From NCBI GenBank assembly GCA_964577715.1, contig CAZOAA010000001.1, positions 13,396-77,395 of the forward strand: a stretch of 64,000 bases of DNA, given 5' to 3'. Positions within the stretch are counted from its first letter, which is position 1, and every line of letters starts with the position of its first letter. This DNA comes from an uncultured Candidatus Thioglobus sp. GTDB lineage: Bacteria > Pseudomonadota > Gammaproteobacteria > PS1 > Pseudothioglobaceae. The position numbers and the translations under genes are program-made. The notes under the pieces were generated by a model. It was not told the origin of the DNA. It saw nothing but the letters and a program-made list of their open reading frames with translations, and did not search any database. Of the stretch, positions 3,188-20,017 are shown piece after piece.

Positions 3188-3961
3188 ATGAAGGCGGTAA
3201 TATTGGCAGGTGGGCTGGGCACTCGATTAAGTGAGGAGACTGCACTTAAGCCCAAGCCAATGGTTGAAATTGGTAACATGCCAATTCTTTGGCATATTAT
3301 GAAAACTTACTCTTACCATGGTGTAAATGATTTTATTATTTGTTGTGGTTACAAAGGGTATGTCATAAAAGAATATTTTTCTAACTATTTTTTACATATG
3401 TCAGATGTTACATTTTGTATGAAGGATCAATCCATGAAAGTTCATCAAAATAACGCAGAACCTTGGACGGTTACCTTGGTTGATACAGGTGATAATACTT
3501 TAACTGGTGGACGTTTAAAACGTGTTTATGATTATATAAAAAATGATGACGCTTGTTGCTTTACCTATGGAGATGGTGTAAGTGATGTAGATATTTCCAG
3601 TCTAATTGAGTTCCATAAAAACCATGGTAAGTTAGCTACACTTACTGCTACACGTCCAACCGGAAGATTTGGCTCACTGAAAATATCTAAAGATAACACT
3701 GTTAACAGTTTTAAAGAAAAAATAAATAGTGACGAAAGTTGGATTAATGGCGGATATTTTGTCCTTTCCCCTAAAGTTATTGAATATATAGATGGTGATA
3801 ATATGGCATGGGAAGAACAGCCTTTAAGAAAGTTATCTAATGAAGGTAATTTAATGTCTTTTAAGCATGATGGATTTTGGCAGCCCATGGATACTTTATA
3901 TGAAAAAATAATGCTAAATAAATTATGGGATAGTGGAAAAGCGCCTTGGAAGGTTTGGTAG
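3188..3961 (+). CDS. rfbF: Glucose-1-phosphate cytidylyltransferase
   Basis: N-terminus MKAVILAGGLGTRLSEET..KPKPMVEIG..PILWHIMK, 257 aa, directly followed by a CDP-glucose 4,6-dehydratase homologue. Confidence 0.9.
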   Translation: MKAVILAGGLGTRLSEETALKPKPMVEIGNMPILWHIMKTYSYHGVNDFIICCGYKGYVIKEYFSNYFLHMSDVTFCMKDQSMKVHQNNAEPWTVTLVDTGDNTLTGGRLKRVYDYIKNDDACCFTYGDGVSDVDISSLIEFHKNHGKLATLTATRPTGRFGSLKISKDNTVNSFKEKINSDESWINGGYFVLSPKVIEYIDGDNMAWEEQPLRKLSNEGNLMSFKHDGFWQPMDTLYEKIMLNKLWDSGKAPWKVW

Positions 3962-5013
3962 TGGATTCAAAATTTTGGAAAGGGCGTAGAGTATTCTTAA
4001 CGGGCCATACTGGGTTTAAGGGGGGGTGGATTGCACTATGGCTTTCGCATATGGGGGCAAAAGTTTATGGGTATTCTTTGGCGCCATTAACAACGCCTAG
4101 CTTCTTTACTGAAACTAAATTGTCTGAACGAGTGGAGCGTTCGATAATGGGTGACATTAGGGATATAGAAAACTTAAAAAAATCTTTATTAGAGTCAAGG
4201 GCAAGTGTCGTCATTCATATGGCTGCACAGCCTCTCGTTCGAAAGTCTTATGCTGATCCAGTAGAAACATACTCTACCAATGTAATGGGTACAGTTAATA
4301 TTTTTGAGGCAATTCGACAAACAAATACAGTTAAAGCGGTTGTTAATATTACAACAGATAAGTGCTATGAAAATATGGAATGGGTGTGGCCCTATCGTGA
4401 AAATGATCGTTTAGGTGGCTATGACCCCTATTCATCTAGTAAGTCCTGCGCTGAAATAGTATCATCAGCTTATCGAAGTTCATTTCTTGCAAGTCAAAAT
4501 ATACATCTAGCGAGTGTTAGAGCGGGGAATGTTATTGGTGGAGGTGACTGGTCTGTTGATCGTTTAATACCAGATTTTTTAAGAGCTATTGAAGCAGGAG
4601 CCTCTCTTAAAATTAGATTGCCAAATGCTGTTAGGCCATGGCAACATGTGTTGGAGCCTTTATCTGGATACTTAATACTAGCTGAAAAGTTAGTTTTATG
4701 TGGTGAAAGATATGCTAGCGAGTGGAATTTTGGTCCAGATGAAAATGACACTAAGTCAGTATCTTGGATTGCCGACTATCTTTGTAGTAATCTTCCTAAC
4801 GCAAGTTGGAGGCATATTGAAACACCTCAGCCTCATGAATCTGGACTACTAAAATTAGATAGTAGCAAAGCAAAGTTGTATTTAGGGTGGTCACCAAAAT
4901 GGAATATAGAGGGCACATTAGATAAGACTATTGAGTGGCACAAGGCGTGGAAACAAGGTAAATGCATGACTGACTTTTCGATAGCTCAAATTGAAGATTA
5001 TCTTGCTATATGA
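3946..5013 (+). CDS. rfbG: CDP-glucose 4,6-dehydratase (a GTG at 3961 is an equally plausible start)
   Basis: FWKGRRVFLTGHTGFKGGW Rossmann N-terminus typical of RfbG/DdhB. Catalytic YSSSK (YxxxK). 355 aa. Confidence 0.88.
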   Translation: MEGLVVDSKFWKGRRVFLTGHTGFKGGWIALWLSHMGAKVYGYSLAPLTTPSFFTETKLSERVERSIMGDIRDIENLKKSLLESRASVVIHMAAQPLVRKSYADPVETYSTNVMGTVNIFEAIRQTNTVKAVVNITTDKCYENMEWVWPYRENDRLGGYDPYSSSKSCAEIVSSAYRSSFLASQNIHLASVRAGNVIGGGDWSVDRLIPDFLRAIEAGASLKIRLPNAVRPWQHVLEPLSGYLILAEKLVLCGERYASEWNFGPDENDTKSVSWIADYLCSNLPNASWRHIETPQPHESGLLKLDSSKAKLYLGWSPKWNIEGTLDKTIEWHKAWKQGKCMTDFSIAQIEDYLAI

Positions 5014-5570
5014 ATCATTTGACAATACATGATACTCATATTTCAGGGCTTCGTATAATTGAGCGTCATTCATTTGAGGATCGCCGAGGATATTTTGAAC
5101 GACTTTACTCCCATAAAGAGTTTGATAGTTTATTGCAGGATAGAATGATCAAGCAAATAAATCATACATTCACCCGTAAAAAAGGCACTGTTCGTGGGCT
5201 ACACTACCAACATCCTCCTTTCTCAGAGGTTAAAATTGTTTCCTGTTTGAAAGGTAGTGTTTGGGATGTTGCAGTTGATCTTAGAAAAAAATCACCAACT
5301 TTTTTGCAATATCATGCGATACGTATGTCAGAAGATGATTCTATTTCTTTCTGGATACCTGAGGGGTTTGCGCACGGTTTTCAAACATTAACCCATGATT
5401 GTAAAATGCTTTATCTACATACTAAAGAATACATGCCAAATTCAGAAGGTGCACTTAATGCAACTGACCCAAAAGTCAAAGTAGAGTGGCCATTAAAAAT
5501 TTCAGATATTTCTGATAAAGATAGAGGGCATCCATTTATCTCTAAGGGCTTTGAGGGAGTAGTTGTATGA
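5010..5570 (+). CDS. RmlC-fold NDP-4-keto-6-deoxyhexose 3,5-epimerase family protein
   Basis: Cupin-type RGLHYQ and WIPEGFAHGFQTL motifs, 186 aa, ATGA overlap with rfbG. Confidence 0.75.
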   Translation: MNHLTIHDTHISGLRIIERHSFEDRRGYFERLYSHKEFDSLLQDRMIKQINHTFTRKKGTVRGLHYQHPPFSEVKIVSCLKGSVWDVAVDLRKKSPTFLQYHAIRMSEDDSISFWIPEGFAHGFQTLTHDCKMLYLHTKEYMPNSEGALNATDPKVKVEWPLKISDISDKDRGHPFISKGFEGVVV

Positions 5571-6796
5571 ATTGCCGCCACTGTAAAAAAGAACTTGTAC
5601 ACACATTTTTAAACCTTGGGTTTTCACCGATATCCAATGCTTATTTGACAGAAGAAGATCTTTCAAAGCCAGAAAAATACTACCCTCTTAATATTAAAAT
5701 TTGCAATCACTGTTGGTTAGTACAAACTGAAGATTATCTCCATGAAGATCAGCTATTTGATTCAAATTATGCTTATTTTTCCAGTACTTCTAGTAGCTGG
5801 ATTGATCATTCTATGAAATATGTTAGAAAGATAACCAAAAAATTAGATTTAGATTCGGAAAGTTTGGTTATTGAAATTGCTTCTAATGATGGATATTTAC
5901 TTAAAAATTTTGTAGAAAATAAAATTCCATGTTTAGGAATTGAGCCTACAGACAGTACTGCAGATGCTGCAGAAGCTTTAGGAATTCCTGTGATTCGAGA
6001 ATTTTTTGTTGAAGATCTTGGTAAAAAGCTTGCTACTGAAGGTAGATTGGCAGATTTAATTATAGGGAATAATGTTTATGCGCATGTGCCTGAAATAAAT
6101 GACTTTACCGCAGGTCTTAAGGCAGTACTAAAAGAAAATGGAACTATTACTCTAGAATTTCCTCACCTATTGAATTTAATTGATCAGAATCAGTTTGATA
6201 CCATCTATCATGAGCATTTTTCATATCTGTCGTTATATACAGTTAGTAAAATATTTGCTATGCACGATCTAAGGATTTATGATGTAGAGCGGGTATTGAC
6301 ACATGGTGGAAGTTTGCGTATTTACGGCTGCCATTATAAGAGTCAATTAATAGAAAACTCAACTGTTCAAAAGATGCTGGAATTGGAAGAACAGTATGGG
6401 TTGAAACGATTAAATACTTATCAGAATTTTCAACAGCGAGTTGACAGGGTTAAAAATAGCTTGTTATATTTTTTAATTCAGCAGAAGCAGCTGGGAAAAA
6501 CCGTCTCAGCCTATGGTGCGGCGGCAAAAGGTAATACGCTACTAAATTATGCGGGTATTAAGCCTGATCTACTCCCTTTTGTTTGTGATGCAGCACCTAT
6601 TAAGCAGGGAAAATATATGCCTGGTAGTCATATACCAATTTTAAAACCTAATGCATTAGAAGTGCAAGCGCCTGATTATGTGTTGATTCTGCCATGGAAT
6701 ATTTCTGAAGAAGTAAAGCAGCAACTTATAAATGATCATTCATTTAAAGGAGATTTTGTAACAGTTATCCCCGAGTTGCAAATTATTAAACAATAG
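5567..6796 (+). CDS. NDP-hexose C-methyltransferase (TylC3-like class I SAM enzyme with N-terminal Zn-ribbon)
   Basis: N-terminal CRHC...CNHC zinc-ribbon pairs, SAM motif VIEIASNDGYLL, about 410 aa length and domain order typical of sugar C3-methyltransferases. Confidence 0.7.
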   Translation: MNCRHCKKELVHTFLNLGFSPISNAYLTEEDLSKPEKYYPLNIKICNHCWLVQTEDYLHEDQLFDSNYAYFSSTSSSWIDHSMKYVRKITKKLDLDSESLVIEIASNDGYLLKNFVENKIPCLGIEPTDSTADAAEALGIPVIREFFVEDLGKKLATEGRLADLIIGNNVYAHVPEINDFTAGLKAVLKENGTITLEFPHLLNLIDQNQFDTIYHEHFSYLSLYTVSKIFAMHDLRIYDVERVLTHGGSLRIYGCHYKSQLIENSTVQKMLELEEQYGLKRLNTYQNFQQRVDRVKNSLLYFLIQQKQLGKTVSAYGAAAKGNTLLNYAGIKPDLLPFVCDAAPIKQGKYMPGSHIPILKPNALEVQAPDYVLILPWNISEEVKQQLINDHSFKGDFVTVIPELQIIKQ

Positions 6797-7920
6797 TGAA
6801 ATCACGCATTCATTATACTAAACCCTCAATAACAGATTTAGAGGTTAAATATGCCGCAGATGCGGCAAAAAATGGTTGGGGTGAAGAATGCTATACTTAC
6901 ATAAGTAATTTTGAAAATCTTTTTAAACAGCACTTAGGTGTAGACTATGCGATAGCAACCTCCAGTTGTACTGGATCGCTTCACATGGGTATGGCTGCAC
7001 TTGGTATAGGGCCGAATGATGAAGTTATTATGGCTGATACCAATTGGATTGCCACAGCATCACCTATTGTTAACCTTGGTGCCAAGCCTGTATTTGTTGA
7101 CATTCTTCCTGATTCATGGTGTATTAATCCTGAGCTAGTAGAGGCAGCAATAACGCCAAATACTAAGGCAATTATTGCGGTACATTTATATGGAAATCTG
7201 TGTGATATGGATCGACTACTGGAAATTGGAAGTAAATATAATATTCCAGTTATTGAAGATGCGGCAGAGGCTATTGGCTCTATCTATCACGGAAAAAGAG
7301 CTGGCTCTATGGGGAAGTTTGGAGTTTTTTCATTTCATGGAACTAAAACTTTAACTACAGGGGAAGGGGGGATTTTTGTTACAAATGATGCAAATCTATA
7401 TGAACGAGTACTAACATTAAGTAATCATGGTCGTTCAAAAGAACAGGTAAAGCAATTTTGGCCTGACTTAGTAGGGTTTAAATATAAAATTTCAAATATT
7501 CAGGCTGCTATAGGTTGTGGCCAGTTAGAACGAATTGATGAGCTGGTTATGAAAAAAAGAGAAGTCTTTAAAATGTACCAGGAGAAATTAAATTCAATTC
7601 CTGGAATAAGCCTCAATTCAGAAGACAAAGGAACGGTAAATGGTGCGTGGATGCCAACTGTTGTTTTTTCTAAGGAATCGGGTGTAAAACGTGAGACTTT
7701 GCAAAGTGCCTTCAAAAGAGAAAATATTGATGCAAGAGTGTTTTTTTGGCCATTGTCTAGCTTACCAATGTTTCAAGCGAAAGAAAAGAATCTGAATGCA
7801 TATTCAATTCCTAAAAGATCTATCAATTTACCTAGTTATCACGATTTGAGCCTTGTAGAGCAACAAAGAGTTGTAGATGTCTTGTATTCTATTTCTTATG
7901 AGTTTGGCTTAAAAAAATGA
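6796..7920 (+). CDS. DegT/DnrJ/EryC1-family PLP-dependent sugar aminotransferase
   Basis: ATSSCTGSLHMGMAALGIGPNDEVI and FSFHGTKTLTTGEGG (PLP-lysine context). 374 aa. Confidence 0.85.
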   Translation: MKSRIHYTKPSITDLEVKYAADAAKNGWGEECYTYISNFENLFKQHLGVDYAIATSSCTGSLHMGMAALGIGPNDEVIMADTNWIATASPIVNLGAKPVFVDILPDSWCINPELVEAAITPNTKAIIAVHLYGNLCDMDRLLEIGSKYNIPVIEDAAEAIGSIYHGKRAGSMGKFGVFSFHGTKTLTTGEGGIFVTNDANLYERVLTLSNHGRSKEQVKQFWPDLVGFKYKISNIQAAIGCGQLERIDELVMKKREVFKMYQEKLNSIPGISLNSEDKGTVNGAWMPTVVFSKESGVKRETLQSAFKRENIDARVFFWPLSSLPMFQAKEKNLNAYSIPKRSINLPSYHDLSLVEQQRVVDVLYSISYEFGLKK

Positions 7921-8651
7921 GAATAATACTTATGGCAGATGGGATAGTTGGGTTTAAGATCGCCCAATACTTATCAAAACAATATCCAGGTGATTTATTT
8001 TTAATTGTTACTATTAAAAAAAATAATATATATAAGTTTTTTAAAAAAAATGGTTTTAATGTATTGGCTTTTGAATCAGAAGAGATTATTTTAAAAAAAC
8101 TTAACCATAAAGAGGTTGACCTTGGAATTCTAGCATGGTGGCCAAATATTATTAGATCACCTTTGATAGATTATCCAAAACAAGGCTTTTTGAACACCCA
8201 TCCAAGTTTCTTACCGTATAATCGCGGGAAGCACTTTAGTTTTTGGGCGATCGTTGAGCAGGCGCCATTTGGAGTATCTATACATTGTGTAAGCAATAAT
8301 ATTGATTCAGGTGATATAATAGCTCAAAAAGAAATAAACTACAACTGGTGTGATAATGGTGAATCTTTATATTATAAGTCCCAGGAAGAGATGTTAAATT
8401 TGTTTATTAAGACTTATCCATCTTTACACATGGGGTGTTTAAGTAAAAAAAAGCAAGATATGTCAAAGGGATCTTATCACCTGTCATGTGAAATTGAAGA
8501 GGCTAGCAAAATTAATCTTGATGATTTGTATACAGGGAGAGACATTCTAAACAAACTAAGGGCTCGAACATTTTCCGGGCATCCTAGTTGTTGGTTTGAG
8601 GATGAAAATATTGTTTATGATGTATCTATAGAAATTAATAAAAAAAAATAA
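7917..8651 (+). CDS. Sugar N-formyltransferase (Fmt/PurN-like formyl-transferase domain)
   Basis: NTHPSFLPYNRG (HxSLLPxxRG-type motif) and downstream IDSGDII. Sits directly after the aminotransferase. Confidence 0.72.
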   Translation: MRIILMADGIVGFKIAQYLSKQYPGDLFLIVTIKKNNIYKFFKKNGFNVLAFESEEIILKKLNHKEVDLGILAWWPNIIRSPLIDYPKQGFLNTHPSFLPYNRGKHFSFWAIVEQAPFGVSIHCVSNNIDSGDIIAQKEINYNWCDNGESLYYKSQEEMLNLFIKTYPSLHMGCLSKKKQDMSKGSYHLSCEIEEASKINLDDLYTGRDILNKLRARTFSGHPSCWFEDENIVYDVSIEINKKK

Positions 8652-8672
8652 TTTAAAAAAAAGTGAAATATT

Positions 8673-9638
8673 ATGGAAGCAAATAAAAGCTATTCCGACA
8701 GAAGTTCCGGATAGGATGTTGAGTCTGGAGTACGGAGTAATTCAGAAATATATGAATTTGACTTTTCAAATGAATCGTCTACCTCAGAAGAAATTAGTGT
8801 CAGTTGGCATTTAGATTCTTACTCAGGAATCCTTGAACATAATGAATTAAAAAGTCTTTCTGACAAAGATAAAGAGTTCGTAAAAGGTATTCAGTTATTA
8901 GAATTTGTCACTAAACAAACAATTTTTGAGATTGATTGTGTTAATTATGTAACTTCTAGACTAACGCATGGGAAATATAAATTTAATTTTTCTGAGTCTT
9001 TAAAGCTTGACGCTTTAAAAGTTTATACCGATGAAGGATATCATGCTTATTACACACAGAAAGTGGCCAATCAGATAAGGCATTATTACCATATTGGTGA
9101 GGACGATATTAGCCCATTTGTTAAAGACTATTATTCAAAGATCGAATTAATTATTTCCAAGTTTGATAAAAAATACAAAGATCTTTGTATGCTGGCATTT
9201 GTTATTGCTGGCGAGAATCAAATTGTCTCAGATCTTTCGAATGATATGCGAAAGATAGTCCATGAGCCTATTCGAAAGATGTTTAGAGATCATATGAAAG
9301 ATGAAGTATTTCATGCTAGATTCTTTAGTATAGTTTTTGAAAAAATTTGGCCTCAACTAAATGCTAAAGAGAAAGAAATTATGGGGTTGTGCTTTTGTGA
9401 CTCTATGGAAATATTAGGATCACCTCGTACTGATATCTATTATTTTTCTTTGGCCAAGCTGGGTTTTAACGAACAACAAATATCGCAATATATCAACGAT
9501 ATATATAATACAATTGAGTGGAAAACAACTAGAATTAGCGCTAGAATGGCTCCAACAATAAGCTTATTAAAATCAAATAATGTTTTTGATATTGAATCAG
9601 TTAAAAATGCGTTTCAGAGAAAAAATTATATAATATAA
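8673..9638 (+). pseudogene. Ferritin-like di-iron oxygenase (AurF-like fold) interrupted by an in-frame TAG at codon 14
   Basis: ATG at 8673 and the 9063..9638 ORF are in the same frame. The only stop between them is TAG at 8712..8714. The 116 codons between the TAG and the GTG at 9063 contain no ATG/GTG/TTG. Two ExxH motifs (DEGYHAYY at about 9030, DEVFHARFF) plus upstream and mid-protein Glu residues fit an E...ExxH...E...ExxH four-helix-bundle di-iron site. Confidence 0.5.
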
Positions 9639-9644
9639 GTAGCA

Positions 9645-9730
9645 ATGTCAAAATATTTAAAAGCAAATAGTGATTATTGGAGTCAGGCGGTTTATGATAA
9701 TCCAAACCCTGAGTCATATGTATTTAGAAT
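9645..9730 (+). pseudogene. 5' fragment (28 codons + 2 nt) of an IS-disrupted class I SAM-methyltransferase
   Basis: ATG 9645: MSKYLKANSDYWSQAVYDNPNPESYVFR, then the IS left end. The frame continues perfectly at 10475. Confidence 0.75.
9723..9730. repeat. Target-site duplication, left copy (TTTAGAAT)
   Basis: The identical 8-mer directly abuts the other IS end at 10467..10474. Confidence 0.85.
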
Positions 9731-9752
9731 GGGTCAAGATAACTTTAGAGGT
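9731..9752. repeat. IS terminal inverted repeat at the left window-side end (contains the transposase stop codon)
   Basis: See the mobile_element entry. 21/22 match to the reverse complement of 10445..10466. Confidence 0.85.
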
Positions 9753-10420
9753 TCATCTCTAAATATTTTAAGCAAATTTTGATACATATCTTCACCTCTA
9801 TTATTAAACCTAAATTCACATTCTTTTAGGTGTAAATTAAACATCTTTTTATCCATACCTTTAAACTTTACTAACCTTGTTTTGGCATAACCCCAGAATG
9901 ATTCAATTCCATTAATATGAGAGTTTCCTCTCACAAACTCATTCTTCCCATGGTGCACTCTAAAGTGCTTCTTATAGCCAAAATCTACTAAACCATTATA
10001 CCCACGCCAACCATCGGAATGAATAACACTACCAACATCAACTTTGCCCTTGATAACCTTCTGCAGCACAGCTGCAGAGCAATCAGGGACAATTTCAGTA
10101 TAAACCTTACCTTGTCTTTTTAACAAACCAAACACTATGGTTTTACCTCTGGCGCCACGGCCGCGTTTTCCGCGGACGCGCCGTGCACCAAAATAACTTT
10201 CATCAATTTCAATCTCACCTTTGAGTGGTGACTGATCTTGACAATACAAAAATATTCTAGACCTAATAGCTGTTAAATATTTGTTAATACTTGGTCTAGA
10301 TATTTTTGTTAAATGAGAGATTTGAGTTGCACTCAAATCCTCAGAAAACAAGTAAATTATTTCTCTAAATTTCTTCTCAGAAATGTGAGAACGAATTACA
10401 TACTTGTTTTTCATTGGCAT
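9734..10420 (-). CDS. IS1595-family (ISXO2-like) DDE transposase
   Basis: 228 aa. N-terminal HTH-like LSATQISHLTKISRPSINKYL, GRG-rich RVRGKRGRGARGK linker, HSDGWRGY and NGIESFWGYAKTRL motifs typical of IS1595 DDE transposases. Confidence 0.85.
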   Translation of the reverse strand: MPMKNKYVIRSHISEKKFREIIYLFSEDLSATQISHLTKISRPSINKYLTAIRSRIFLYCQDQSPLKGEIEIDESYFGARRVRGKRGRGARGKTIVFGLLKRQGKVYTEIVPDCSAAVLQKVIKGKVDVGSVIHSDGWRGYNGLVDFGYKKHFRVHHGKNEFVRGNSHINGIESFWGYAKTRLVKFKGMDKKMFNLHLKECEFRFNNRGEDMYQNLLKIFRDEPLKLS

Positions 10421-10444
10421 AGCAACATATTATCATGTTTTTAT

Positions 10445-10466
10445 ACCTCTAAAGTTATCTAGACCC
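10445..10466. repeat. IS terminal inverted repeat at the right window-side end
   Basis: See the mobile_element entry. Confidence 0.85.
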
Positions 10467-10474
10467 TTTAGAAT
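10467..10474. repeat. Target-site duplication, right copy (TTTAGAAT)
   Basis: Identical to 9723..9730. Confidence 0.85.
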
Positions 10475-11108
10475 ATATGGCCGTATTTTAAATTATCAGT
10501 TTGGCCTGAATGGAAAGAGAAATGATAATGTTCTTGATTTTGGTTGCGGTTCTGGGGGTAATTCTACATTTTTTGACTCTAAAGGTTTTAATGTTTTTGG
10601 TGTAGATCAAAGTGCTGGTGACATTGAAAGGTGTCACAAACGCTTACCAAATAAAGTCAATCAATTCAAAACTATAAGTCCAGAATGCTCTCAAGATGAT
10701 ATCTGGTTTCCTAGAGTAAAATTTAAAATTATTACTTCGTTCCAGGTTTTGTACTATCTCAATGATACAGATCTACAGAGAAGGCTTACATCGTTATACA
10801 ATATGCTTGAACCTGGCGGTATTTTTATTGCAACTATGATGCATACTAGCTCTTGGTATTATGGCATGAGTCATCCATCTGAAGATGGAATGAGGTTTGT
10901 CAAATTTTATCGTGAACAAGATGTTGGTAGGGGTAATCTTTCTATGAATGATCACTATATAAATTTTACTAATGATGAAAAAGATTTAATTGAAAAATTT
11001 AAAATCTTTCTCCCTCTGCATACCAAAGGTTATTATGATGGAGTGTATAGAGATGATCAAGGCTCTGAGAAGCATCTAGTTTTTATTGGTCAAAAACCCA
11101 AGATTTGA
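10475..11108 (+). pseudogene. 3' part of the IS-disrupted class I SAM-methyltransferase
   Basis: The track ORF 10404..11108 borrows its first 21 codons from IS sequence. From FRIYGRILNYQ onward it continues the 9645 fragment. SAM motif I VLDFGCGSGGN and post-I LEPGGIFIA are present. Joining 9645..9730 to 10475..11108 gives 720 nt, i.e. 239 aa plus stop. Confidence 0.8.
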
Positions 11109-11884
11109 AAAAAAATCAGAACCCCATAAGATTGATTGCTAGAATCGATGTTAGGAATGGCTATCATATTAAAACTATCAATGGTGAAGGGGTTAAGAAA
11201 CTACGAACAATTGAGGAGTCATTGGAGCGTTTCACAAAAGGTGTTAATGAGCATGATGAAATTCTTTTAATTGATGCTGTATCCTCTCTTTATGGTTTTG
11301 ATAATTGGTTAATTCGGCAGGATAATAAACATATGTATTGTCCAATACCTTTTTCTATTGGTGGTGGAGTGGCATCTGTTGATATGGCCATTTCCACTTT
11401 AGAAAAAGGTGCAGATAAAATTGTAGTTAATACTGCTGCCATTGCAAAGCCAAAATTATTATCAGATATTTCGAATATTTGTGGCAGGCAAGCAGTTGTG
11501 CTTCAGATTGATACAAGAAAAATTAATAACATTTATAGGTGTTTTATCAATGGATCGCGAGAGCTTTCCAATCTTACTGTGGAAAATTGGTTGCAGCAGG
11601 CCCAGGATAATGGGGTTGGTGAAATCCATGTAACTTGCATTAATTCTGAGGGTGTAGACGCTACTTTCCCTGATGATCTTGCAGATTTGTGCAGATCTAA
11701 TACACAACTCCCTTTGATTGTATCTGGAGGTATTAGAAGCGCCTTGGATATGAAAAATCTTAGATTAAAATTTGAAATTAATGCTTTCAGTTTTTCTTCG
11801 ATTACTAACCATTTGGGCCTAACCGTTGAACAAATCAGGCGCGACCTTTTGACGCTTGGAGAGAGTGTAAGGTGTCCACATTAG
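11105..11884 (+). CDS. wbuZ: HisF-like cyclase subunit of a glycosyl amidation system (WbuZ-type)
   Basis: HisF-type (beta/alpha)8 phosphate-binding motifs FSIGGGV and VSGGIRS. Followed by a HisH-like protein and an N-acetyl-sugar amidotransferase. Confidence 0.75.
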   Translation: MKKNQNPIRLIARIDVRNGYHIKTINGEGVKKLRTIEESLERFTKGVNEHDEILLIDAVSSLYGFDNWLIRQDNKHMYCPIPFSIGGGVASVDMAISTLEKGADKIVVNTAAIAKPKLLSDISNICGRQAVVLQIDTRKINNIYRCFINGSRELSNLTVENWLQQAQDNGVGEIHVTCINSEGVDATFPDDLADLCRSNTQLPLIVSGGIRSALDMKNLRLKFEINAFSFSSITNHLGLTVEQIRRDLLTLGESVRCPH

Positions 11885-12513
11885 TACATATTGTAAAACT
11901 TAAAAGTTCAAACTACAGATCTGTACAACAGGCGGTTATCGCAGGGGGAGGCGGAGTTACGCCAAAAATAATTGAAATAATTGAATTAAAAGATAGTTCA
12001 ATTTTAATTATTCCTGGAATTGGGAATATGGCTTCATTGGTAAGTGAAGTAAGTGAAAATCTTGATATAGAGCGGATTAGAAATTATATTATTTCTCATA
12101 ATATTAAGGTGATTGGGATTTGCTTAGGATTTCAATGGTTGTGCTCCAAGTCTTTTGAAAGCGAGCATTCTAAGTGTTTAAATTTAATTAATTGTACAGT
12201 TGAGTCGATCTTTACTCCAACAATGCCTTCTTTAGGATGGAAGAGGCTTAAAGAGTCTATTTTCAATAAAAATACTAGCTCATTATCGAATTATATTAAA
12301 GGTAAAGATTTCTATTTAACTCACTCTTTTGGGGTAGGCGATTTAGAGCTGAAGGGTGCAGAAGTTTATGTGTATTCTTCTGATGAAGCTAATAATTTGG
12401 TAGCTGCCGTTATAAGTAAAAATATTATTGGTTATCAGTTTCATCCTGAAAAGAGTGGCCAACACGGTGTAAAATTACTTCAGAAACCAATCTTATATTT
12501 GGAGAGTAATTGA
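11872..12513 (+). CDS. wbuY: HisH-like class I glutamine amidotransferase subunit (WbuY-type)
   Basis: Nucleophile elbow GICLGFQWL and C-terminal FHPEKS (His-Glu of the triad). Confidence 0.75.
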   Translation: MSTLVHIVKLKSSNYRSVQQAVIAGGGGVTPKIIEIIELKDSSILIIPGIGNMASLVSEVSENLDIERIRNYIISHNIKVIGICLGFQWLCSKSFESEHSKCLNLINCTVESIFTPTMPSLGWKRLKESIFNKNTSSLSNYIKGKDFYLTHSFGVGDLELKGAEVYVYSSDEANNLVAAVISKNIIGYQFHPEKSGQHGVKLLQKPILYLESN

Positions 12514-13742
12514 TAGTGAATAATTTACCTAAGGCGCCACCTTCTAAAACCGTTATCTTCTGTAAAACTTGTGTAATCTCAAATCAAAAACCTGTTTCAT
12601 CAATTGAATCTTCTCACTCGCAAGGAGATATAAAGAAAACGGTAAACTTTAAAGATGGAATTTGTGATGCTTGCCACTGGGCTAAAATTAAAGATCAAGA
12701 TATTGATTGGCAAGCTAGAGAGAGTGAATTAAAGAAACTACTTGACAAGCATAGAAAAAATAATGGTGAATATGATGTAATTGTCCCAGCTAGTGGGGGT
12801 AAGGATTCAATGTATGTGGCTCATATGTTGAAAGAAAAGTATAATATGAACCCTTTAACTGTAACATGGAAGCCCCATGTTTTTACACCTATTGGATTTG
12901 AAAACTTTATGAGTTTAATAGATAGTGGCCAAAGCAATCTAATGTTTTCTCCCCCTGGAGATATACAAAGGAGATTAACCTCTCTAGCATTTAAGAATCT
13001 AGGCCATCCATTTCAACCTTTTATTGTTGGACAAAGAGTTGTTGGTCCTAAGGCAGCACTAATGAACAATGTTAAGCTGGTCTTTTATGGTGAGAATGTT
13101 GCTGAATATGGTAATCAAATTAAAGATAATTACAGCCCCATTATGGATCCAGAGCTTTACACTTGTTTTAACCATGATAAAGATACTTTAGATTTATTTA
13201 AACTATCTGGTATTACTTTGAAAGACCTTATTGATAAACATGATTTCTCAATCAGTGATTTTGAGTCATATAAATCGCCATCATTGCTTGAAGTTGAGTC
13301 TGCAGGGATTCAAGTTCATTATATGTCTTATTATAAAAAATGGAATCCACAAGAAAACTATTATTATTCGGTTCAATATACAGGATTTAAGGCTAGTGAT
13401 AGGCGCAAAGATGGTAGTTACTCCAAGTACGCAGGAATTGATGATATTATGGAAGACTTGCATTTTTATATGCAAGTAATCAAGTTTGGTATGGGTAGAT
13501 GCACATGGGATGCTGCACAAGAAGTTAGGTCGGGTATGCTTGAAAGGCATGAAGAAGTGGCTTTGGTATCTAAGTATGATCAAGAGCAGCCAACTCAGTA
13601 TTTTCAAGAAATTCTTGAATATTTAAATATTTCTGAAAGTGAGTTTTGGTCAGTGATTGATTTTTTTAGACCTGAACATCTTTGGAGAGAGTTAGATGAT
13701 GGTAGTTTTTCTCTTAAACATCCTATAAGGTATGATACCTGA
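12510..13742 (+). CDS. wbuX: N-acetyl sugar amidotransferase (WbuX/PseA/LfnA-type PP-loop ATPase)
   Basis: N-terminal Cys pairs (CKTC..., CDAC), PP-loop VPASGGKDS, about 410 aa. Forms the canonical partnership with the HisH/HisF-like pair. Confidence 0.78.
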   Translation: MIVNNLPKAPPSKTVIFCKTCVISNQKPVSSIESSHSQGDIKKTVNFKDGICDACHWAKIKDQDIDWQARESELKKLLDKHRKNNGEYDVIVPASGGKDSMYVAHMLKEKYNMNPLTVTWKPHVFTPIGFENFMSLIDSGQSNLMFSPPGDIQRRLTSLAFKNLGHPFQPFIVGQRVVGPKAALMNNVKLVFYGENVAEYGNQIKDNYSPIMDPELYTCFNHDKDTLDLFKLSGITLKDLIDKHDFSISDFESYKSPSLLEVESAGIQVHYMSYYKKWNPQENYYYSVQYTGFKASDRRKDGSYSKYAGIDDIMEDLHFYMQVIKFGMGRCTWDAAQEVRSGMLERHEEVALVSKYDQEQPTQYFQEILEYLNISESEFWSVIDFFRPEHLWRELDDGSFSLKHPIRYDT

Positions 13743-13790
13743 CCCTTGTATTGGAAAATTCTATAATAGATTACATTTTTAATATTTAAT

Positions 13791-14579
13791 ATGACTACAT
13801 TTAAAAAACATCAACAATTCAAAGAGAAGTGCTTTTCAGAAATAAAAAAACAAGGAGAAGATGATGATTTATTGAATTCAACATCTATTTGGTTTGAAAA
13901 AGCAAACAGGTTGAATTATTCATATCACTTTGAATCTTTAGGACGCCCAATAATTCAATATCCACAAGATATGATTGCAATGCAAGAGTTAATATGGAAG
14001 GTTAAGCCCGATCTGATTATTGAAACAGGAATTGCGCATGGAGGGTCTTTAATTATGAGCGCATCCATGTTGGCAACATTGGATATGTGTGACGCGATTG
14101 AATCTGGAGAGACTTTTAACCCTATAGAATCAAAGCGAAAAGTTTTGGGTGTTGATATAGATATTCGTGCACATAATCGAAAAGCAATTGAGATGCACCC
14201 AATGTCGTCCCGTATTCAAATGATTCAAGGTTCTAGTATCGAATCAGAGACCATCGAACAAGTGTACCAGGTTGCAAAAAAATATAAACGCATTCTTGTG
14301 TGCCTTGACTCAAACCACACTCATGATCACGTACTAGCCGAACTCAAGGCATACGCTTTGTTGACAAGTATAGATAGTTACTGTGTAGTCTTTGATACAA
14401 TTATTGAGGATATGCCTGACAATATGTTTTTAAATAGGAAATGGTCTCAAGGTAACAATCCAAAGACTGCAGTATGGGAATATTTAAAAACTTGTTCAGA
14501 GTTTAAGATTGATAAAAGCATGCAAAATAAGTTGCTAATCACTGTGGCGCCAGATGGATATTTAAAGCGTGTAAAGTAA
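13791..14579 (+). CDS. CmcI (cephalosporin hydroxylase) family SAM-dependent O-methyltransferase
   Basis: LGRPIIQYPQDMIAMQELIWKVKPDLIIETGIAHGGS ... VLGVDIDIR matches the CmcI-family signature. Confidence 0.72.
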   Translation: MTTFKKHQQFKEKCFSEIKKQGEDDDLLNSTSIWFEKANRLNYSYHFESLGRPIIQYPQDMIAMQELIWKVKPDLIIETGIAHGGSLIMSASMLATLDMCDAIESGETFNPIESKRKVLGVDIDIRAHNRKAIEMHPMSSRIQMIQGSSIESETIEQVYQVAKKYKRILVCLDSNHTHDHVLAELKAYALLTSIDSYCVVFDTIIEDMPDNMFLNRKWSQGNNPKTAVWEYLKTCSEFKIDKSMQNKLLITVAPDGYLKRVK

Positions 14580-18156: not shown

Positions 18157-18659
18157 ATGAACATTAACAATATAGATTTATTTGTATTTGATTTTGACGG
18201 TGTGTTGACCAATAACCTTGTTTATACAAATGAGTTGGGAGAGGAATTTGTTGTTTGTAGTCGTAGTGATGGCTTGGGATTTGATTTGTTAAAGGCAATA
18301 AAAAAAGAGTCTTGTATATTGTCAACCGAAAAAAACCATGCTGTTTCAGCGAGAGCAAAAAACTTAATATCCCTGTAATTCAAGGGGCTGGGGATAAGGT
18401 TGATGTATTGAAAAATATTGCAAAAGAGCGAAATATTAGCCTTGACGGTATTTTTTATGTTGGCAATGATGTTAATGATTATTATGCTATGGATATTTGC
18501 GGTTATACAGCTTGCCCATCTGATAGTCATAGTTTAATTAAAAACAATGTGGACTACATACTTAAAGCTAAAGGTGGGCATGGAATTGTTCGTGAAATAT
18601 TAGAAGATGTTTTTCAATTAAATATACTTAAATTACTTAAAAAACTAAAAGATGAATAA
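18157..18659 (+). pseudogene. KdsC-family HAD phosphatase paralogue, frameshifted at an A6 run (18357..18362)
   Basis: ORF 18157..18378 (DFDGVLT ... STEKNHAVSARAKN) and ORF 18312..18659 (KKLNIPVIQG ... GNDVNDY ...) are the N- and C-terminal halves of one protein. Together they are colinear with the intact paralogue at 19499..20017. Adding one A to the A6 run restores ...ARAKKLNIPVIQG... Confidence 0.8.
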
Positions 18660-19498: not shown

Positions 19499-20017
19499 AT
19501 GGATAGATTTATATCTATAGACTGCATAGATGTCTTGGTTTTTGACTTTGACGGTGTATTGACTGATAATTCAGTCTATATTGATGAAAGCGGTAGAGAG
19601 CAGGTTAAATGCAGTAGATCGGATGGGTTGGCTTTCGATGTTTTGCGAAAGATTAACAAACCTGTTTGTATTATCTCTACTGAAAAGAATTCCGTTGTCT
19701 CTTCTAGAGCTGCAAAATTACGCATACCAGTAATTCAAGGTGTATCTGATAAAGCAAGAGAATTAGAGAAACTTGCAAATGAGCACTCTTATCAATTGTC
19801 AAAAATACTATTTGTGGGTAATGATTTAAATGATTATCCGGCGATGAACTTATGTGGTTTTACAGCGTGTCCGGGCGACAGTCATCAGGTAATTCAAGAG
19901 TTGTCCACTTTTGTACTTCGAACAGAGGGTGGCAAAGGGGTTGTTAGAGAGTTGATAGAAGAAATCTTCCAGTTAGATCCATTGAAGATATTATTTGAGA
20001 TTGAGAATAAGAGGTAA
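19499..20017 (+). CDS. KdsC-family HAD-IIIA ulosonate-phosphate phosphatase
   Basis: VFDFDGVLTDN (DxDGV), STEKN, GNDLNDY. 172 aa. Confidence 0.8.
   Translation: MDRFISIDCIDVLVFDFDGVLTDNSVYIDESGREQVKCSRSDGLAFDVLRKINKPVCIISTEKNSVVSSRAAKLRIPVIQGVSDKARELEKLANEHSYQLSKILFVGNDLNDYPAMNLCGFTACPGDSHQVIQELSTFVLRTEGGKGVVRELIEEIFQLDPLKILFEIENKR

What the first reader, a model, noticed from the sequence alone, without database searches (positions are those of the whole stretch)
8673..9638. Di-iron (AurF-like) oxygenase gene in a sugar pathway, broken or recoded by a single in-frame TAG
Seen:
- ATG 8673 and the ORF 9063..9638 share one frame. The only interruption is TAG at 8712..8714 (codon 14).
- The 116 codons after the TAG contain no ATG/GTG/TTG, yet they encode protein-like sequence. 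That sequence includes the first ExxH motif (DEGYH) and an upstream helix with Glu (LLEFVTKQTIFE).
- The second half carries GENQ and DEVFH.

Established: E...ExxH...E...ExxH is the ligand pattern of ferritin-like di-iron oxygenases such as the arylamine N-oxygenase AurF.

Inference: the gene is a very fresh nonsense pseudogene, a sequencing error, or depends on TAG read-through.

The gene sits immediately after an aminotransferase and a formyltransferase. A di-iron N- or C-oxygenase acting on an NDP-amino sugar would be unusual, because the amino-sugar N-oxygenases I know of are flavoenzymes.
Basis: partly seen in the sequence, partly recalled or inferred. Interest (0 to 1): 0.65.

Follow-up and report, generated by a model that had tools for sequence, protein, structure and literature searches.

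The report
Recently broken di-iron oxygenase sugar gene
A gene for an AurF/CmlI-type di-iron oxygenase, part of a conserved module that builds a decorated surface sugar, has been knocked out here by one Trp-to-stop mutation, and its partner methyltransferase by a mobile element; the breakage is ordinary gene loss, but the sugar-linked enzyme family is uncharacterised.

Summary
ATG 8673 to TAA 9638 is one frame with a single stop, TAG 8712-8714 (codon 14). No ATG/GTG/TTG follows for 116 codons.

The read-through protein matches Pfam AurF (51.7 bits, cut-off 29.6). Its model (pLDDT 90) is closest to CmlI and AurF (TM 0.65-0.78). It keeps the invariant 3-His/4-Glu metal site: E86, E121, H124, E181, H207, E211, H214.

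All 24 aligned homologues are full length (314-329 aa) and have Trp at codon 14. The closest orthologous DNA reads TGG, so this is a TGG>TAG nonsense mutation.

- It is not recoding: 13 of 59 long ORFs in the window end in TAG.
- It is unlikely to be an assembly error: a separate assembly of run SRR8146441 is identical over 3,720 bases, TAG included.
- It is recent: identity to the orthologue (77%) matches most neighbouring module genes (72-84%), with no second lesion.

The methyltransferase that follows this gene in every comparable locus is split by a 736-bp IS1595 element with intact 8-bp target duplications. The oxygenase/methyltransferase step pair is therefore lost.

Across about 25 related loci the subfamily always sits in C-methyl amino-sugar clusters, between a formyl- or carbamoyl-transferase and a methyltransferase. 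Its chemistry is unknown; N-oxygenation is favoured.

The parts
8673..9638 (+). AurF/CmlI-type di-iron oxygenase gene, 321 codons, now a nonsense pseudogene
   Evidence: Single frame with one internal stop. Pfam PF11583, 51.7 bits against a cut-off of 29.6. 40 homologues; most are 314-329 aa and cover 95-100% of the frame. Model pLDDT 90; best PDB folds are CmlI and AurF.
8712..8714 (+). Premature TAG (codon 14), derived from TGG (Trp)
   Evidence: Trp in 24/24 aligned homologues. Orthologous DNA in L001/L002 reads GAA TGG GAC where the window reads GGA TAG GAT.
9063..9638 (+). Residual 191-aa ORF from the first in-frame start (GTG) after the TAG. It lacks E86, E121 and H124, so it cannot form the metal site.
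8928..9314 (+). Span holding the seven metal-ligand codons: E86 (8928-8930), E121 (9033-9035), H124 (9042-9044), E181 (9213-9215), H207 (9291-9293), E211 (9303-9305), H214 (9312-9314)
   Evidence: All seven are invariant columns in A1. The stretch holding six of them aligns to AurF; E136, H139, H223, E227 and H230 were counted from that alignment and E196 was read by eye. E86 is assigned from its 35-residue spacing to E121. The same 3-His/4-carboxylate pattern is reported for DnfA, AurF and CmlI (PMC9478400).
9645..9730 (+). 5' fragment of the partner class-I SAM methyltransferase gene (28 native codons, then IS sequence)
9731..10466 (-). IS1595-family insertion sequence, 736 bp. Terminal inverted repeats at 9731-9752 and 10445-10466; transposase ORF at 9734-10420 on the minus strand.
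   Evidence: NCBIfam NF033547, 186 bits. Pfam DDE_Tnp_IS1595. The inverted repeats occur only at these two places, with 0 expected by chance.
9723..9730 (.). Left copy of the 8-bp target-site duplication TTTAGAAT (right copy at 10467-10474)
   Evidence: Removing the IS plus one copy restores a 239-aa ORF that is 83% identical end to end to the orthologous methyltransferase.
10467..11108 (+). 3' part of the split methyltransferase gene (its first 8 bases are the duplicated target)
   Evidence: Pfam Methyltransf_23/25/11
3188..8651 (+). Intact upstream part of the sugar module: Glc-1-P cytidylyltransferase (3188-3961), CDP-glucose 4,6-dehydratase (3946-5013), RmlC-type epimerase (5010-5570), C-methyltransferase (5567-6796), DegT aminotransferase (6796-7920), N-formyltransferase (7917-8651)
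   Evidence: NCBIfam TIGR02623 434 bits, TIGR02622 491 bits, TIGR01221 161 bits. Precomputed Pfam for the products of 5567-6796, 6796-7920 and (from a later start) 7917-8651, and for their syntenic orthologues.
11105..14579 (+). Intact downstream part of the module: HisF-like (11105-11884), HisH-like glutaminase (11872-12513), WbuX-type N-acetyl sugar amidotransferase (12510-13742), CmcI-like methyltransferase (13791-14579)
   Evidence: TIGR03573 317 bits for WbuX. For the CmcI-like gene NF045824 scores only 80 bits (cut-off 400); its family name rests on Pfam RMNT_CmcI on the orthologue. HisF/HisH names come from Pfam on the syntenic orthologues; co-occurrence.

Best explanation
The locus once encoded a 321-aa ferritin-like di-iron oxygenase of the AurF/CmlI type. 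It was a fixed component of a CDP-hexose tailoring module. The inferred steps of that module are: CDP-glucose, 4,6-dehydration, epimerisation, C-methylation, transamination, N-formylation, then oxygenase plus methyltransferase, with a HisH/HisF/WbuX amidotransferase and a CmcI-like methyltransferase.

In this genome a single G>A transition changed the invariant Trp14 codon TGG to TAG. Translation from ATG 8673 stops after 13 residues. There is no in-frame start for the next 116 codons. The only remaining ORF (GTG 9063, 191 aa) lacks three of the seven metal ligands. No functional enzyme can therefore be made by standard decoding.

The methyltransferase gene that immediately follows the oxygenase in every comparable locus is independently destroyed by an IS1595 insertion. 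The oxygenation/methylation step pair has thus been lost, while the genes of the rest of the module remain intact.

Shown: the lesion, its ancestry, family membership, synteny and the IS insertion.

Inferred:
- The strain now makes a less decorated sugar.
- The loss is recent.
- The intact enzyme N-oxygenates a sugar-bound nitrogen (amine, formamide/amidine or carbamoyl N) or glutamine amide, with the neighbouring methyltransferase capping the product. I put about 0.6 on N-oxygenation of some kind, with no sub-route above about 0.3.
For: Lesion and ancestry
- Frame and stop.
- Trp at codon 14 in 24/24 homologues.
- TGG in the orthologous DNA.
- Full-length homologues of 314-329 aa.
- No canonical in-frame start, and only six near-cognate codons, none preceded by a good Shine-Dalgarno sequence by eye.

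Not recoding, not an artefact
- TAG ends 13 of 59 long plus-strand ORFs, and the other 58 long ORFs are uninterrupted.
- Identical sequence, TAG included, in the Logan assembly of SRR8146441.

Recency
- The read-through product is 77% identical to its orthologue, against 72-84% for CMT, DegT, FT, MT, HisF, WbuX and CmcI; HisH is 60%.

Family
- Pfam AurF above threshold.
- AurF is the only PDB sequence hit, with the metal-binding motifs aligned.
- Model pLDDT 90, pTM 0.89.
- CmlI and AurF have TM 0.59-0.78, against at most 0.46 for RNR R2, desaturases and other ferritin-like folds.

Partner gene
- IS1595 with perfect 8-bp duplications; clean in-silico excision restores the ORF.

Module conservation
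- In the 8 distinct type-A loci with enough flank, the class-I methyltransferase lies directly downstream; HisF/HisH/WbuX, CmcI, FT, DegT and CMT are present wherever the contig reaches.
Against: - Raw reads could not be inspected. The second assembly may derive from the same read set, so a shared consensus error is not formally excluded.
- The rest of the genome could not be searched for an amber-suppressor tRNA; the window holds no tRNA.
- No close strain (>90% identity) with an intact allele was found (singleton clusters). 'Recent' therefore rests on the absence of further lesions, not on a dated comparison.
- The enzyme's substrate is not established by anything here.
Confidence: 0.85

Rival explanations
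1. The TAG is a sequencing or assembly error, and the real genome has TGG and an intact, functional oxygenase gene.
For: A single-base difference is all that separates the two states. The rest of the gene is undamaged. Another lesion in the window, a 1-bp loss in an A6 run at 18357-18362, is of a type that sequencing errors can produce.
Against: An assembly of run SRR8146441 made by a different pipeline is 100% identical over window 6063-9782, including the TAG. The change is a substitution, not a homopolymer indel. The adjacent partner gene carries an unambiguous biological lesion, an IS with target-site duplication, so loss of this step pair is independently evident.
Confidence: 0.07
2. The TAG is decoded (amber suppression, pyrrolysine, or programmed read-through), so a full-length enzyme is still made.
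For: The downstream 307 codons are fully open and conserved. The genome outside the window could not be searched for a suppressor tRNA.
Against: TAG terminates 13 of 59 long ORFs in the window, several of them overlapping or abutting the next gene. No other gene shows an in-frame TAG. The homologous position is an invariant Trp, which has the single codon TGG one transition away. No tRNA and no Rfam element is present in the window.
Confidence: 0.04
3. The real gene is the short ORF 9063-9638 (191 aa), and the upstream open frame is a remnant or coincidence.
For: Gene callers report this ORF; P0007 is in the protein database.
Against: Thirty-six of the other 39 homologues are 314-329 aa, and those cover 95-100% of the read-through frame. 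The Pfam domain starts at residue 92, upstream of 9063. Three invariant metal ligands (E86, E121, H124) lie upstream of 9063. No purine-rich Shine-Dalgarno motif precedes GTG 9063.
Confidence: 0.01
4. Concerning function only: the intact enzyme is a C-H hydroxylase, for example of the 3-C-methyl branch. The new hydroxyl is then O-methylated (class-I or TylF-like methyltransferase) or O-carbamoylated. It is not an N-oxygenase.
For: The subfamily always co-occurs with a sugar C-methyltransferase. In type-B loci it is flanked by a carbamoyltransferase (PF02543) and a TylF-like methyltransferase. From my own knowledge, members of those two families usually act on hydroxyl groups. The subfamily is only 12-14% identical to AurF/CmlI.
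Against: The 3-His/4-carboxylate site is the one reported for the N-oxygenases AurF, CmlI and DnfA (PMC9478400). From my own knowledge, ferritin-like C-H hydroxylases and desaturases typically have 2-His/4-carboxylate sites. All characterised PF11583 members met in the literature search act on nitrogen. Aminotransferase genes co-occur as consistently as the C-methyltransferase.
Confidence: 0.2

Closest known systems
AurF (Streptomyces thioluteus p-aminobenzoate N-oxygenase) and CmlI (chloramphenicol arylamine oxygenase), Pfam PF11583
   Same: Pfam match above threshold. Best structural matches, TM 0.59-0.78. Same HxxxExxH, ExxH and single-Glu ligand motifs, with almost the same spacing. Similar size, about 320 aa.
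   Different: Only 12-14% identity in structural alignment. The N-terminal 60 residues, including the invariant W14, V20 and R21, are specific to this subfamily. The genomic context is nucleotide-sugar tailoring, not aromatic natural products, so an arylamine substrate is unlikely. The copy in this window is inactivated.
TsnB7/TsnB8/TsnB9 (trichostatin and benzohydroxamate) and DnfA/DnfC: a PF11583 'amidooxygenase' that N-hydroxylates the amide of L-glutamine, followed by a glutamine-amidotransferase-type enzyme that releases or transfers NH2OH
   Same: An AurF-family oxygenase is encoded next to a methyltransferase and an amidotransferase. The TsnB7-TsnB8(MT)-TsnB9 order is described in PMC13418202, and here the order is oxygenase, MT, HisF, HisH, WbuX. 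The DnfA ligand numbering E88/E123/H126/E182/H209/E213/H216 is almost superimposable on E86/E121/H124/E181/H207/E211/H214.
   Different: The amidotransferase here is a WbuX/HisH/HisF trio, not an AsnB-like TsnB9 or a stand-alone DnfC. No TsnB6-like accessory subunit or DnfB-like reductase was seen. Type-B loci of the same subfamily lack any amidotransferase.
Flavin-dependent amino-sugar nitrososynthases (ORF36, RubN8, KijD3, DnmZ) and the P450 CalE10 (recalled from my own knowledge)
   Same: These are the known enzymes that oxidise the nitrogen of NDP-amino sugars. This is the kind of reaction that would fit the position of this gene after an aminotransferase.
   Different: Unrelated folds and cofactors (acyl-CoA-dehydrogenase-like flavoenzymes, haem P450), and they act on dTDP-sugars of actinomycete antibiotics. 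No sequence relation was tested or expected.
Ordinary nonsense and IS-mediated pseudogenisation in surface-polysaccharide loci
   Same: A TGG>TAG transition in an AT-rich genome. An IS insertion with target duplication in the neighbouring gene. A homopolymer frameshift in a third gene of the same locus.
   Different: Nothing unusual. The only notable point is that the two adjacent lesions hit genes that are always encoded as a pair.

Membership tests
AurF/CmlI-type ferritin-like di-iron oxygenase (PF11583) | Profile match above the curated threshold | tested here: met
   51.7 bits against a gathering score of 29.6, E 8.9e-14, residues 92-262. All 40 homologues carry PF11583.
AurF/CmlI-type ferritin-like di-iron oxygenase (PF11583) | Helical-bundle fold superimposable on AurF/CmlI | tested here: met
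   AlphaFold model pLDDT 90, pTM 0.89. Foldseek top nine hits are CmlI 5HYH/5HYG and AurF 2JCD/3CHH/3CHU/3CHI, TM 0.59-0.78. The next class (RNR R2, desaturases) scores at most 0.46.
AurF/CmlI-type ferritin-like di-iron oxygenase (PF11583) | Seven metal ligands: four carboxylates and three histidines, including the extra His four residues before the second ExxH | tested here: met
   E86, E121, H124, E181, H207, E211 and H214 are invariant in 25 sequences. The stretch holding six of them aligns to AurF; E136, H139, H223, E227 and H230 were counted from that alignment, E196 read by eye. E86 is placed by spacing only (inference). The pattern is the one described in PMC9478400.
AurF/CmlI-type ferritin-like di-iron oxygenase (PF11583) | O2-dependent N-oxygenation activity with bound iron | not testable with these tools
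   Needs purified protein from an intact orthologue.
AurF/CmlI-type ferritin-like di-iron oxygenase (PF11583) | Intact coding sequence in this genome | tested here: not met
   TAG at codon 14 and no in-frame restart.
Nonsense pseudogene | Premature stop at a position that is a sense codon in orthologues, with full-length orthologues | tested here: met
   Trp in 24/24 homologues; TGG in L001/L002 DNA; orthologues of 314-329 aa.
Nonsense pseudogene | The stop codon is a genuine terminator in this organism | tested here: met
   13 of 59 ORFs of at least 120 aa end in TAG.
Nonsense pseudogene | The mutation is real rather than a consensus error | tested here: inconclusive
   Identical in a second assembly of SRR8146441. 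Reads were not inspected, and the independence of the data is unknown.
Stop-codon reassignment or programmed amber read-through | In-frame TAGs recur in other genes and TAG is rare or absent as a terminator; or a suppressor tRNA or recoding signal is present | tested here: not met
   No other interrupted long ORF, and TAG is a common terminator. No tRNA and no Rfam element in the window. The genome-wide tRNA set is not available.
IS1595-family insertion sequence (the element in the partner gene) | DDE transposase of the family, terminal inverted repeats, 8-bp target-site duplication | tested here: met
   NF033547 at 186 bits and PF12762. 22-nt inverted repeats with one mismatch. TTTAGAAT duplicated. 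Excision restores the ORF.
Glutamine amide N-hydroxylase / hydroxylamine-transfer cassette (TsnB7-9, DnfA/C) | AurF-family oxygenase genetically coupled to an amidotransferase that handles Glu gamma-hydroxamate | tested here: inconclusive
   HisH/HisF/WbuX are seen in the type-A loci whose contigs reach far enough (L001, L019-L022, L024, L043 and the window) and are absent from type-B loci. No sequence comparison with TsnB7 or DnfA was possible.

The most novel reading that the evidence does not exclude
The intact subfamily is the first di-iron (AurF-type) N-oxygenase dedicated to a nucleotide-sugar pathway. It installs an N-O function on a CDP-4-amino-4,6-dideoxy-3-C-methyl-hexose. Two routes are possible. 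It may hydroxylate the sugar-bound formamide, amidine or carbamoyl nitrogen directly. Or it may hydroxylate glutamine, so that the HisH/HisF/WbuX amidotransferase delivers NH2OH instead of NH3, by analogy with TsnB7/TsnB9 and DnfA/DnfC. The adjacent methyltransferase then caps the product. This would give N-hydroxy or N-methoxy amidine, hydroxamate or hydroxyurea groups on cell-surface glycans of aquatic bacteria such as Synechococcus sp. MU1617. The window would record a natural loss of exactly that oxygenase/methyltransferase step pair.
Probability: 0.3. Interest if true: 0.7.

Novelty: new variant of a known kind. Interest (0 to 1): 0.4.

Why it matters
The broken gene itself is routine: a Trp-to-amber mutation and an IS hit in a variable surface-polysaccharide locus. 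Variation of this kind could change surface antigens and phage receptors.

What has wider value is the family it belongs to. It is a small, tightly conserved clade of AurF-type di-iron oxygenases: 78 representatives at E<=1e-30 among 1.84 billion proteins. It is found only inside C-methyl amino-sugar gene clusters, always between a formyl- or carbamoyl-transferase and a methyltransferase.

The known N-oxygenases of amino sugars are flavoenzymes or a P450 (from my own knowledge). A di-iron route, possibly linked to an amidotransferase as in hydroxamate biosynthesis, would be new sugar chemistry. It can be tested with intact orthologues (P0001, or the Synechococcus sp. MU1617 protein P0026).

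The paired loss of oxygenase and methyltransferase here is circumstantial genetic evidence that the two act as one functional unit.

Tried and rejected
- **Genome-contig scan** with the family alignment: returned only distant relatives (18-30% identity). These lie in non-sugar contexts such as MFS transporter, GATase and nitroreductase neighbours. They did not help with orthology or with naming the organism.
- **Organism identification**: exact-sequence cluster look-ups gave singleton, unnamed clusters. The transposase's best plasmid hit is only 64% identical, in Trichlorobacter. The organism stays unidentified. I ran no further search on it, because it would not change the verdict.
- **Literature**: searches for AurF plus O-antigen, di-iron N-oxygenase plus nucleotide sugar, AurF-like plus polysaccharide, nitrososynthase plus AurF, and the formyltransferase/C-methyltransferase/CDP-glucose combination found nothing on a sugar-linked AurF homologue. 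The PF11583 search led only to phosphonate clusters and the Dnf system.
- **NCBIfam**: no model matches this protein.
- **Rescue by reinitiation**: the ATG at 8717 just after the TAG is out of frame and, read by eye, closes after about 31 codons. In-frame near-cognate codons (ATA26, ATT41, ATC53, ATT73, ATT84, ATT87) would delete the invariant V20/R21 or more. Rejected.
- **RNA elements**: no Rfam family or tRNA in the window.
- **dN/dS** against the 77%-identical orthologue was not attempted, because synonymous sites would be saturated. Protein identity relative to neighbours was used instead.
Full report
**1. Observation**

Window 8673-9638 translates as one frame of 321 codons, closed by TAA 9636-9638. 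It is interrupted once, by TAG at 8712-8714 (codon 14). The mechanical ORF list puts the first in-frame start after that stop at GTG 9063 (191 aa). A script confirmed that the 116 codons in between contain no ATG, GTG or TTG. With local base composition, 116 stop-free codons are expected by chance with probability about 4e-5.

**2. What the gene is**

- The read-through protein matches Pfam AurF (PF11583) at 51.7 bits (gathering score 29.6). The match covers residues 92-262, so it begins well upstream of the short ORF.
- A search of 5.8 billion protein clusters returned 40 homologues. Most are 314-329 aa, cover 95-100% of the read-through sequence, and all carry PF11583.
- In a 25-sequence alignment, E86, E121, H124, E181, H207, E211 and H214 are invariant.
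- A profile search of PDB sequences found only AurF. It aligns DEGYH to AurF D135-E136-x-x-H139, GE to the AurF single-Glu ligand E196 (position read by eye from the alignment, not counted), and HMKDEVFH to H223-x-x-x-E227-x-x-H230.
- This is the 3-His/4-carboxylate site reported for AurF, CmlI and DnfA. DnfA's ligands are E88/E123/H126/E182/H209/E213/H216 (PMC9478400).
- An AlphaFold model built on the alignment is confident (pLDDT 90, pTM 0.89).
- Its best PDB neighbours are CmlI and AurF (TM 0.59-0.78). Other ferritin-like proteins score at most 0.46.

Family membership is therefore established by sequence, ligand set and fold. Activity cannot be tested here.

**3. What the TAG is**

- All 24 aligned homologues have Trp at codon 14.
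- The closest orthologous loci (L001/L002, 77% protein identity) read GAA TGG GAC where the window reads GGA TAG GAT. Trp has one codon, so the lesion is a single G>A transition.
- TAG is an ordinary terminator here. It ends 13 of 59 plus-strand ORFs of at least 120 aa, and the other long ORFs are uninterrupted and tightly packed.
- The window holds no tRNA and no Rfam element.
- The Logan assembly of run SRR8146441 contains a contig that is 100% identical to window 6063-9782, TAG included. A consensus substitution error is therefore unlikely. Independence of the underlying reads is unknown.
- The read-through product is as similar to its orthologue (77%) as most neighbouring module genes are to theirs (72-84%; HisH is 60%). 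It carries no second lesion. This points to a recent event.
- Rescue by reinitiation is not credible. The ATG two bases after the TAG is out of frame and, read by eye, closes after about 31 codons. In-frame near-cognate codons would remove invariant residues. The 191-aa ORF lacks E86, E121 and H124.

**4. The neighbourhood**

- Upstream lie Glc-1-P cytidylyltransferase (TIGR02623, 434 bits), CDP-glucose 4,6-dehydratase (TIGR02622, 491 bits), an RmlC-type epimerase, a Methyltransf_13/14 C-methyltransferase, a DegT aminotransferase and an N-formyltransferase.
- Downstream, a gene starting at 9645 encodes 28 residues of a class-I SAM methyltransferase and then runs into a 736-bp IS1595-family element (9731-10466).
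  - The transposase scores NF033547 at 186 bits.
  - The 22-nt terminal inverted repeats have one mismatch.
  - The flanking TTTAGAAT duplications are perfect 8-bp copies.
- Removing the element and one duplication in silico restores a 239-aa ORF. It is 83% identical over its full length to the methyltransferase that follows the oxygenase in L002.
- The Logan contig ends 52 bases into the IS. This is what a repeated element does to a short-read assembly.
- Next come HisF-like, HisH-like, WbuX-type amidotransferase (TIGR03573, 317 bits) and CmcI-like methyltransferase genes, all intact.

**5. Conservation of the module**

I fetched about 60 loci encoding relatives. I scored them with tblastn, using the window's module proteins as queries. 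Homologues of at least 40% identity fall into two locus types.

- **Type A** (window, L001-4, L019, L020/28, L021, L022, L024, L026, L042 and short fragments).
  - The order is formyltransferase, oxygenase, class-I methyltransferase, with HisF/HisH/WbuX, the CmcI-like methyltransferase, DegT and the C-methyltransferase nearby.
  - In all 8 distinct loci with enough downstream sequence, the methyltransferase follows the oxygenase directly.
- **Type B** (L023/34/35, L029, L033, L036-L041, L046).
  - A carbamoyltransferase lies next to or near the oxygenase, and in six distinct loci a TylF-like methyltransferase directly follows it.
  - There is no WbuX/HisHF. The longer contigs again show a C-methyltransferase, DegT and a CmcI-like gene.

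Relatives below 35% identity have none of these neighbours. A full HMMER scan of 1.84 billion representatives found only 78 proteins at E<=1e-30, with a steep score drop after a handful of clusters. This is a small, sugar-cluster-specific clade. One named carrier is Synechococcus sp. MU1617.

**6. How it most likely works**

- Shown: the oxygenase gene is dead, and so is its obligate neighbour.
- Inferred: the two encode consecutive steps (oxygenation, then methylation). The strain therefore produces the sugar without that decoration.

For the intact enzyme I favour N-oxygenation, for three reasons.
- The 3-His site is the one reported for the N-oxygenases AurF, CmlI and DnfA.
- Every characterised PF11583 member met in the literature acts on nitrogen: arylamines (AurF, CmlI, AzoC), hydroxylamine or glutamine amide (DnfA), and glutamine amide (TsnB7).
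- The gene is always flanked by an enzyme that acylates or carbamoylates, and by a methyltransferase.

Two routes fit type A. One is direct hydroxylation of the sugar-bound amine, formamide or amidine nitrogen. The other is hydroxylation of glutamine followed by NH2OH delivery through HisH/HisF/WbuX. The second route parallels TsnB7-TsnB8(methyltransferase)-TsnB9 and DnfA/DnfC (PMC13418202 and PMC11160463). Type B lacks an amidotransferase, which argues that at least there the substrate is sugar-bound. Hydroxylation of the C-methyl branch remains a live rival at about 0.2.

**7. Comparison and novelty**

The lesion is textbook pseudogenisation. The protein is a bona fide PF11583 member. It is very divergent from AurF/CmlI (12-14% identity) and sits in a context not described in the searchable literature. 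The known amino-sugar N-oxygenases are flavin nitrososynthases and a P450 (from my own knowledge). I rate it a new variant of a known kind, on the strength of the conserved sugar context. The copy in this window is inactive, and the chemistry is unproven.

**8. Verdict**

- Sequencing error (0.07), read-through (0.04) and 'the short ORF is the real gene' (0.01) are unlikely.
- Interest is moderate (0.4): an ordinary lesion, but a pointer to an uncharacterised di-iron step in surface-sugar biosynthesis.

Noticed in passing
window 9731-10466 (IS), 9645-9730 and 10467-11108 (split gene): A 736-bp IS1595-family element with a perfect 8-bp target duplication (TTTAGAAT) splits the class-I methyltransferase that always follows the oxygenase gene. 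In-silico excision restores the ORF. A short-read contig of the same strain ends 52 bases inside the IS, which suggests several copies in the genome.
   Followed up: yes
window 18157-18659 (A-run 18357-18362): A HAD/KdsC-like phosphatase gene is split into two frames (18157-18378 and 18312-18659). Adding one A to the A6 run restores a 167-aa ORF similar to the intact paralogue at 19499-20017. This is either a real slippage frameshift or a homopolymer sequencing error. It is the third lesion in this locus.
   Followed up: partly
L023, L029, L033, L036-L041, L046 (metagenome loci): A second locus type for the same oxygenase subfamily (40-49% identity). A carbamoyltransferase lies next to or near the oxygenase, usually with a TylF-like methyltransferase directly downstream, in place of formyltransferase, class-I methyltransferase and WbuX/HisHF. 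The longer contigs still lie within C-methyl amino-sugar clusters.
   Followed up: partly
window 5010-5570 versus L002 191-739: The RmlC-type epimerase is only 43% identical to its syntenic counterpart, while the next genes (C-methyltransferase, DegT, formyltransferase) are 72-80% identical. HisH (60%) and the sulfotransferase (51%) also stand out. This suggests mosaic exchange of individual genes within the module.
   Followed up: no
window 1-64000: Apart from the IS transposase, every predicted gene in the 64-kb window is on the plus strand. The genes whose products I scanned (all before 20,100) belong to glycan biosynthesis (sulfotransferase, NeuB-like synthase, amidotransferases). By eye, three of the last ORFs also look like glycosyltransferases, and the last one, asparagine-synthase-like from 61362, appears fused to a glycosyltransferase-like region and runs off the end. 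GC is about 0.30-0.37, with one richer block (0.44) at 22-24 kb. There is no tRNA or Rfam RNA. The organism was not identified.
   Followed up: partly
L006 9947-12802, L007 8842-12089: The nearest relatives outside the sugar clade (24-28% identity) sit next to an MFS transporter plus a class-I glutamine amidotransferase (L006), or next to a nitroreductase plus an MFS transporter (L007, Pseudomonas rubra). The L006 arrangement is reminiscent of the dnfA/dnfC pairing.
   Followed up: no
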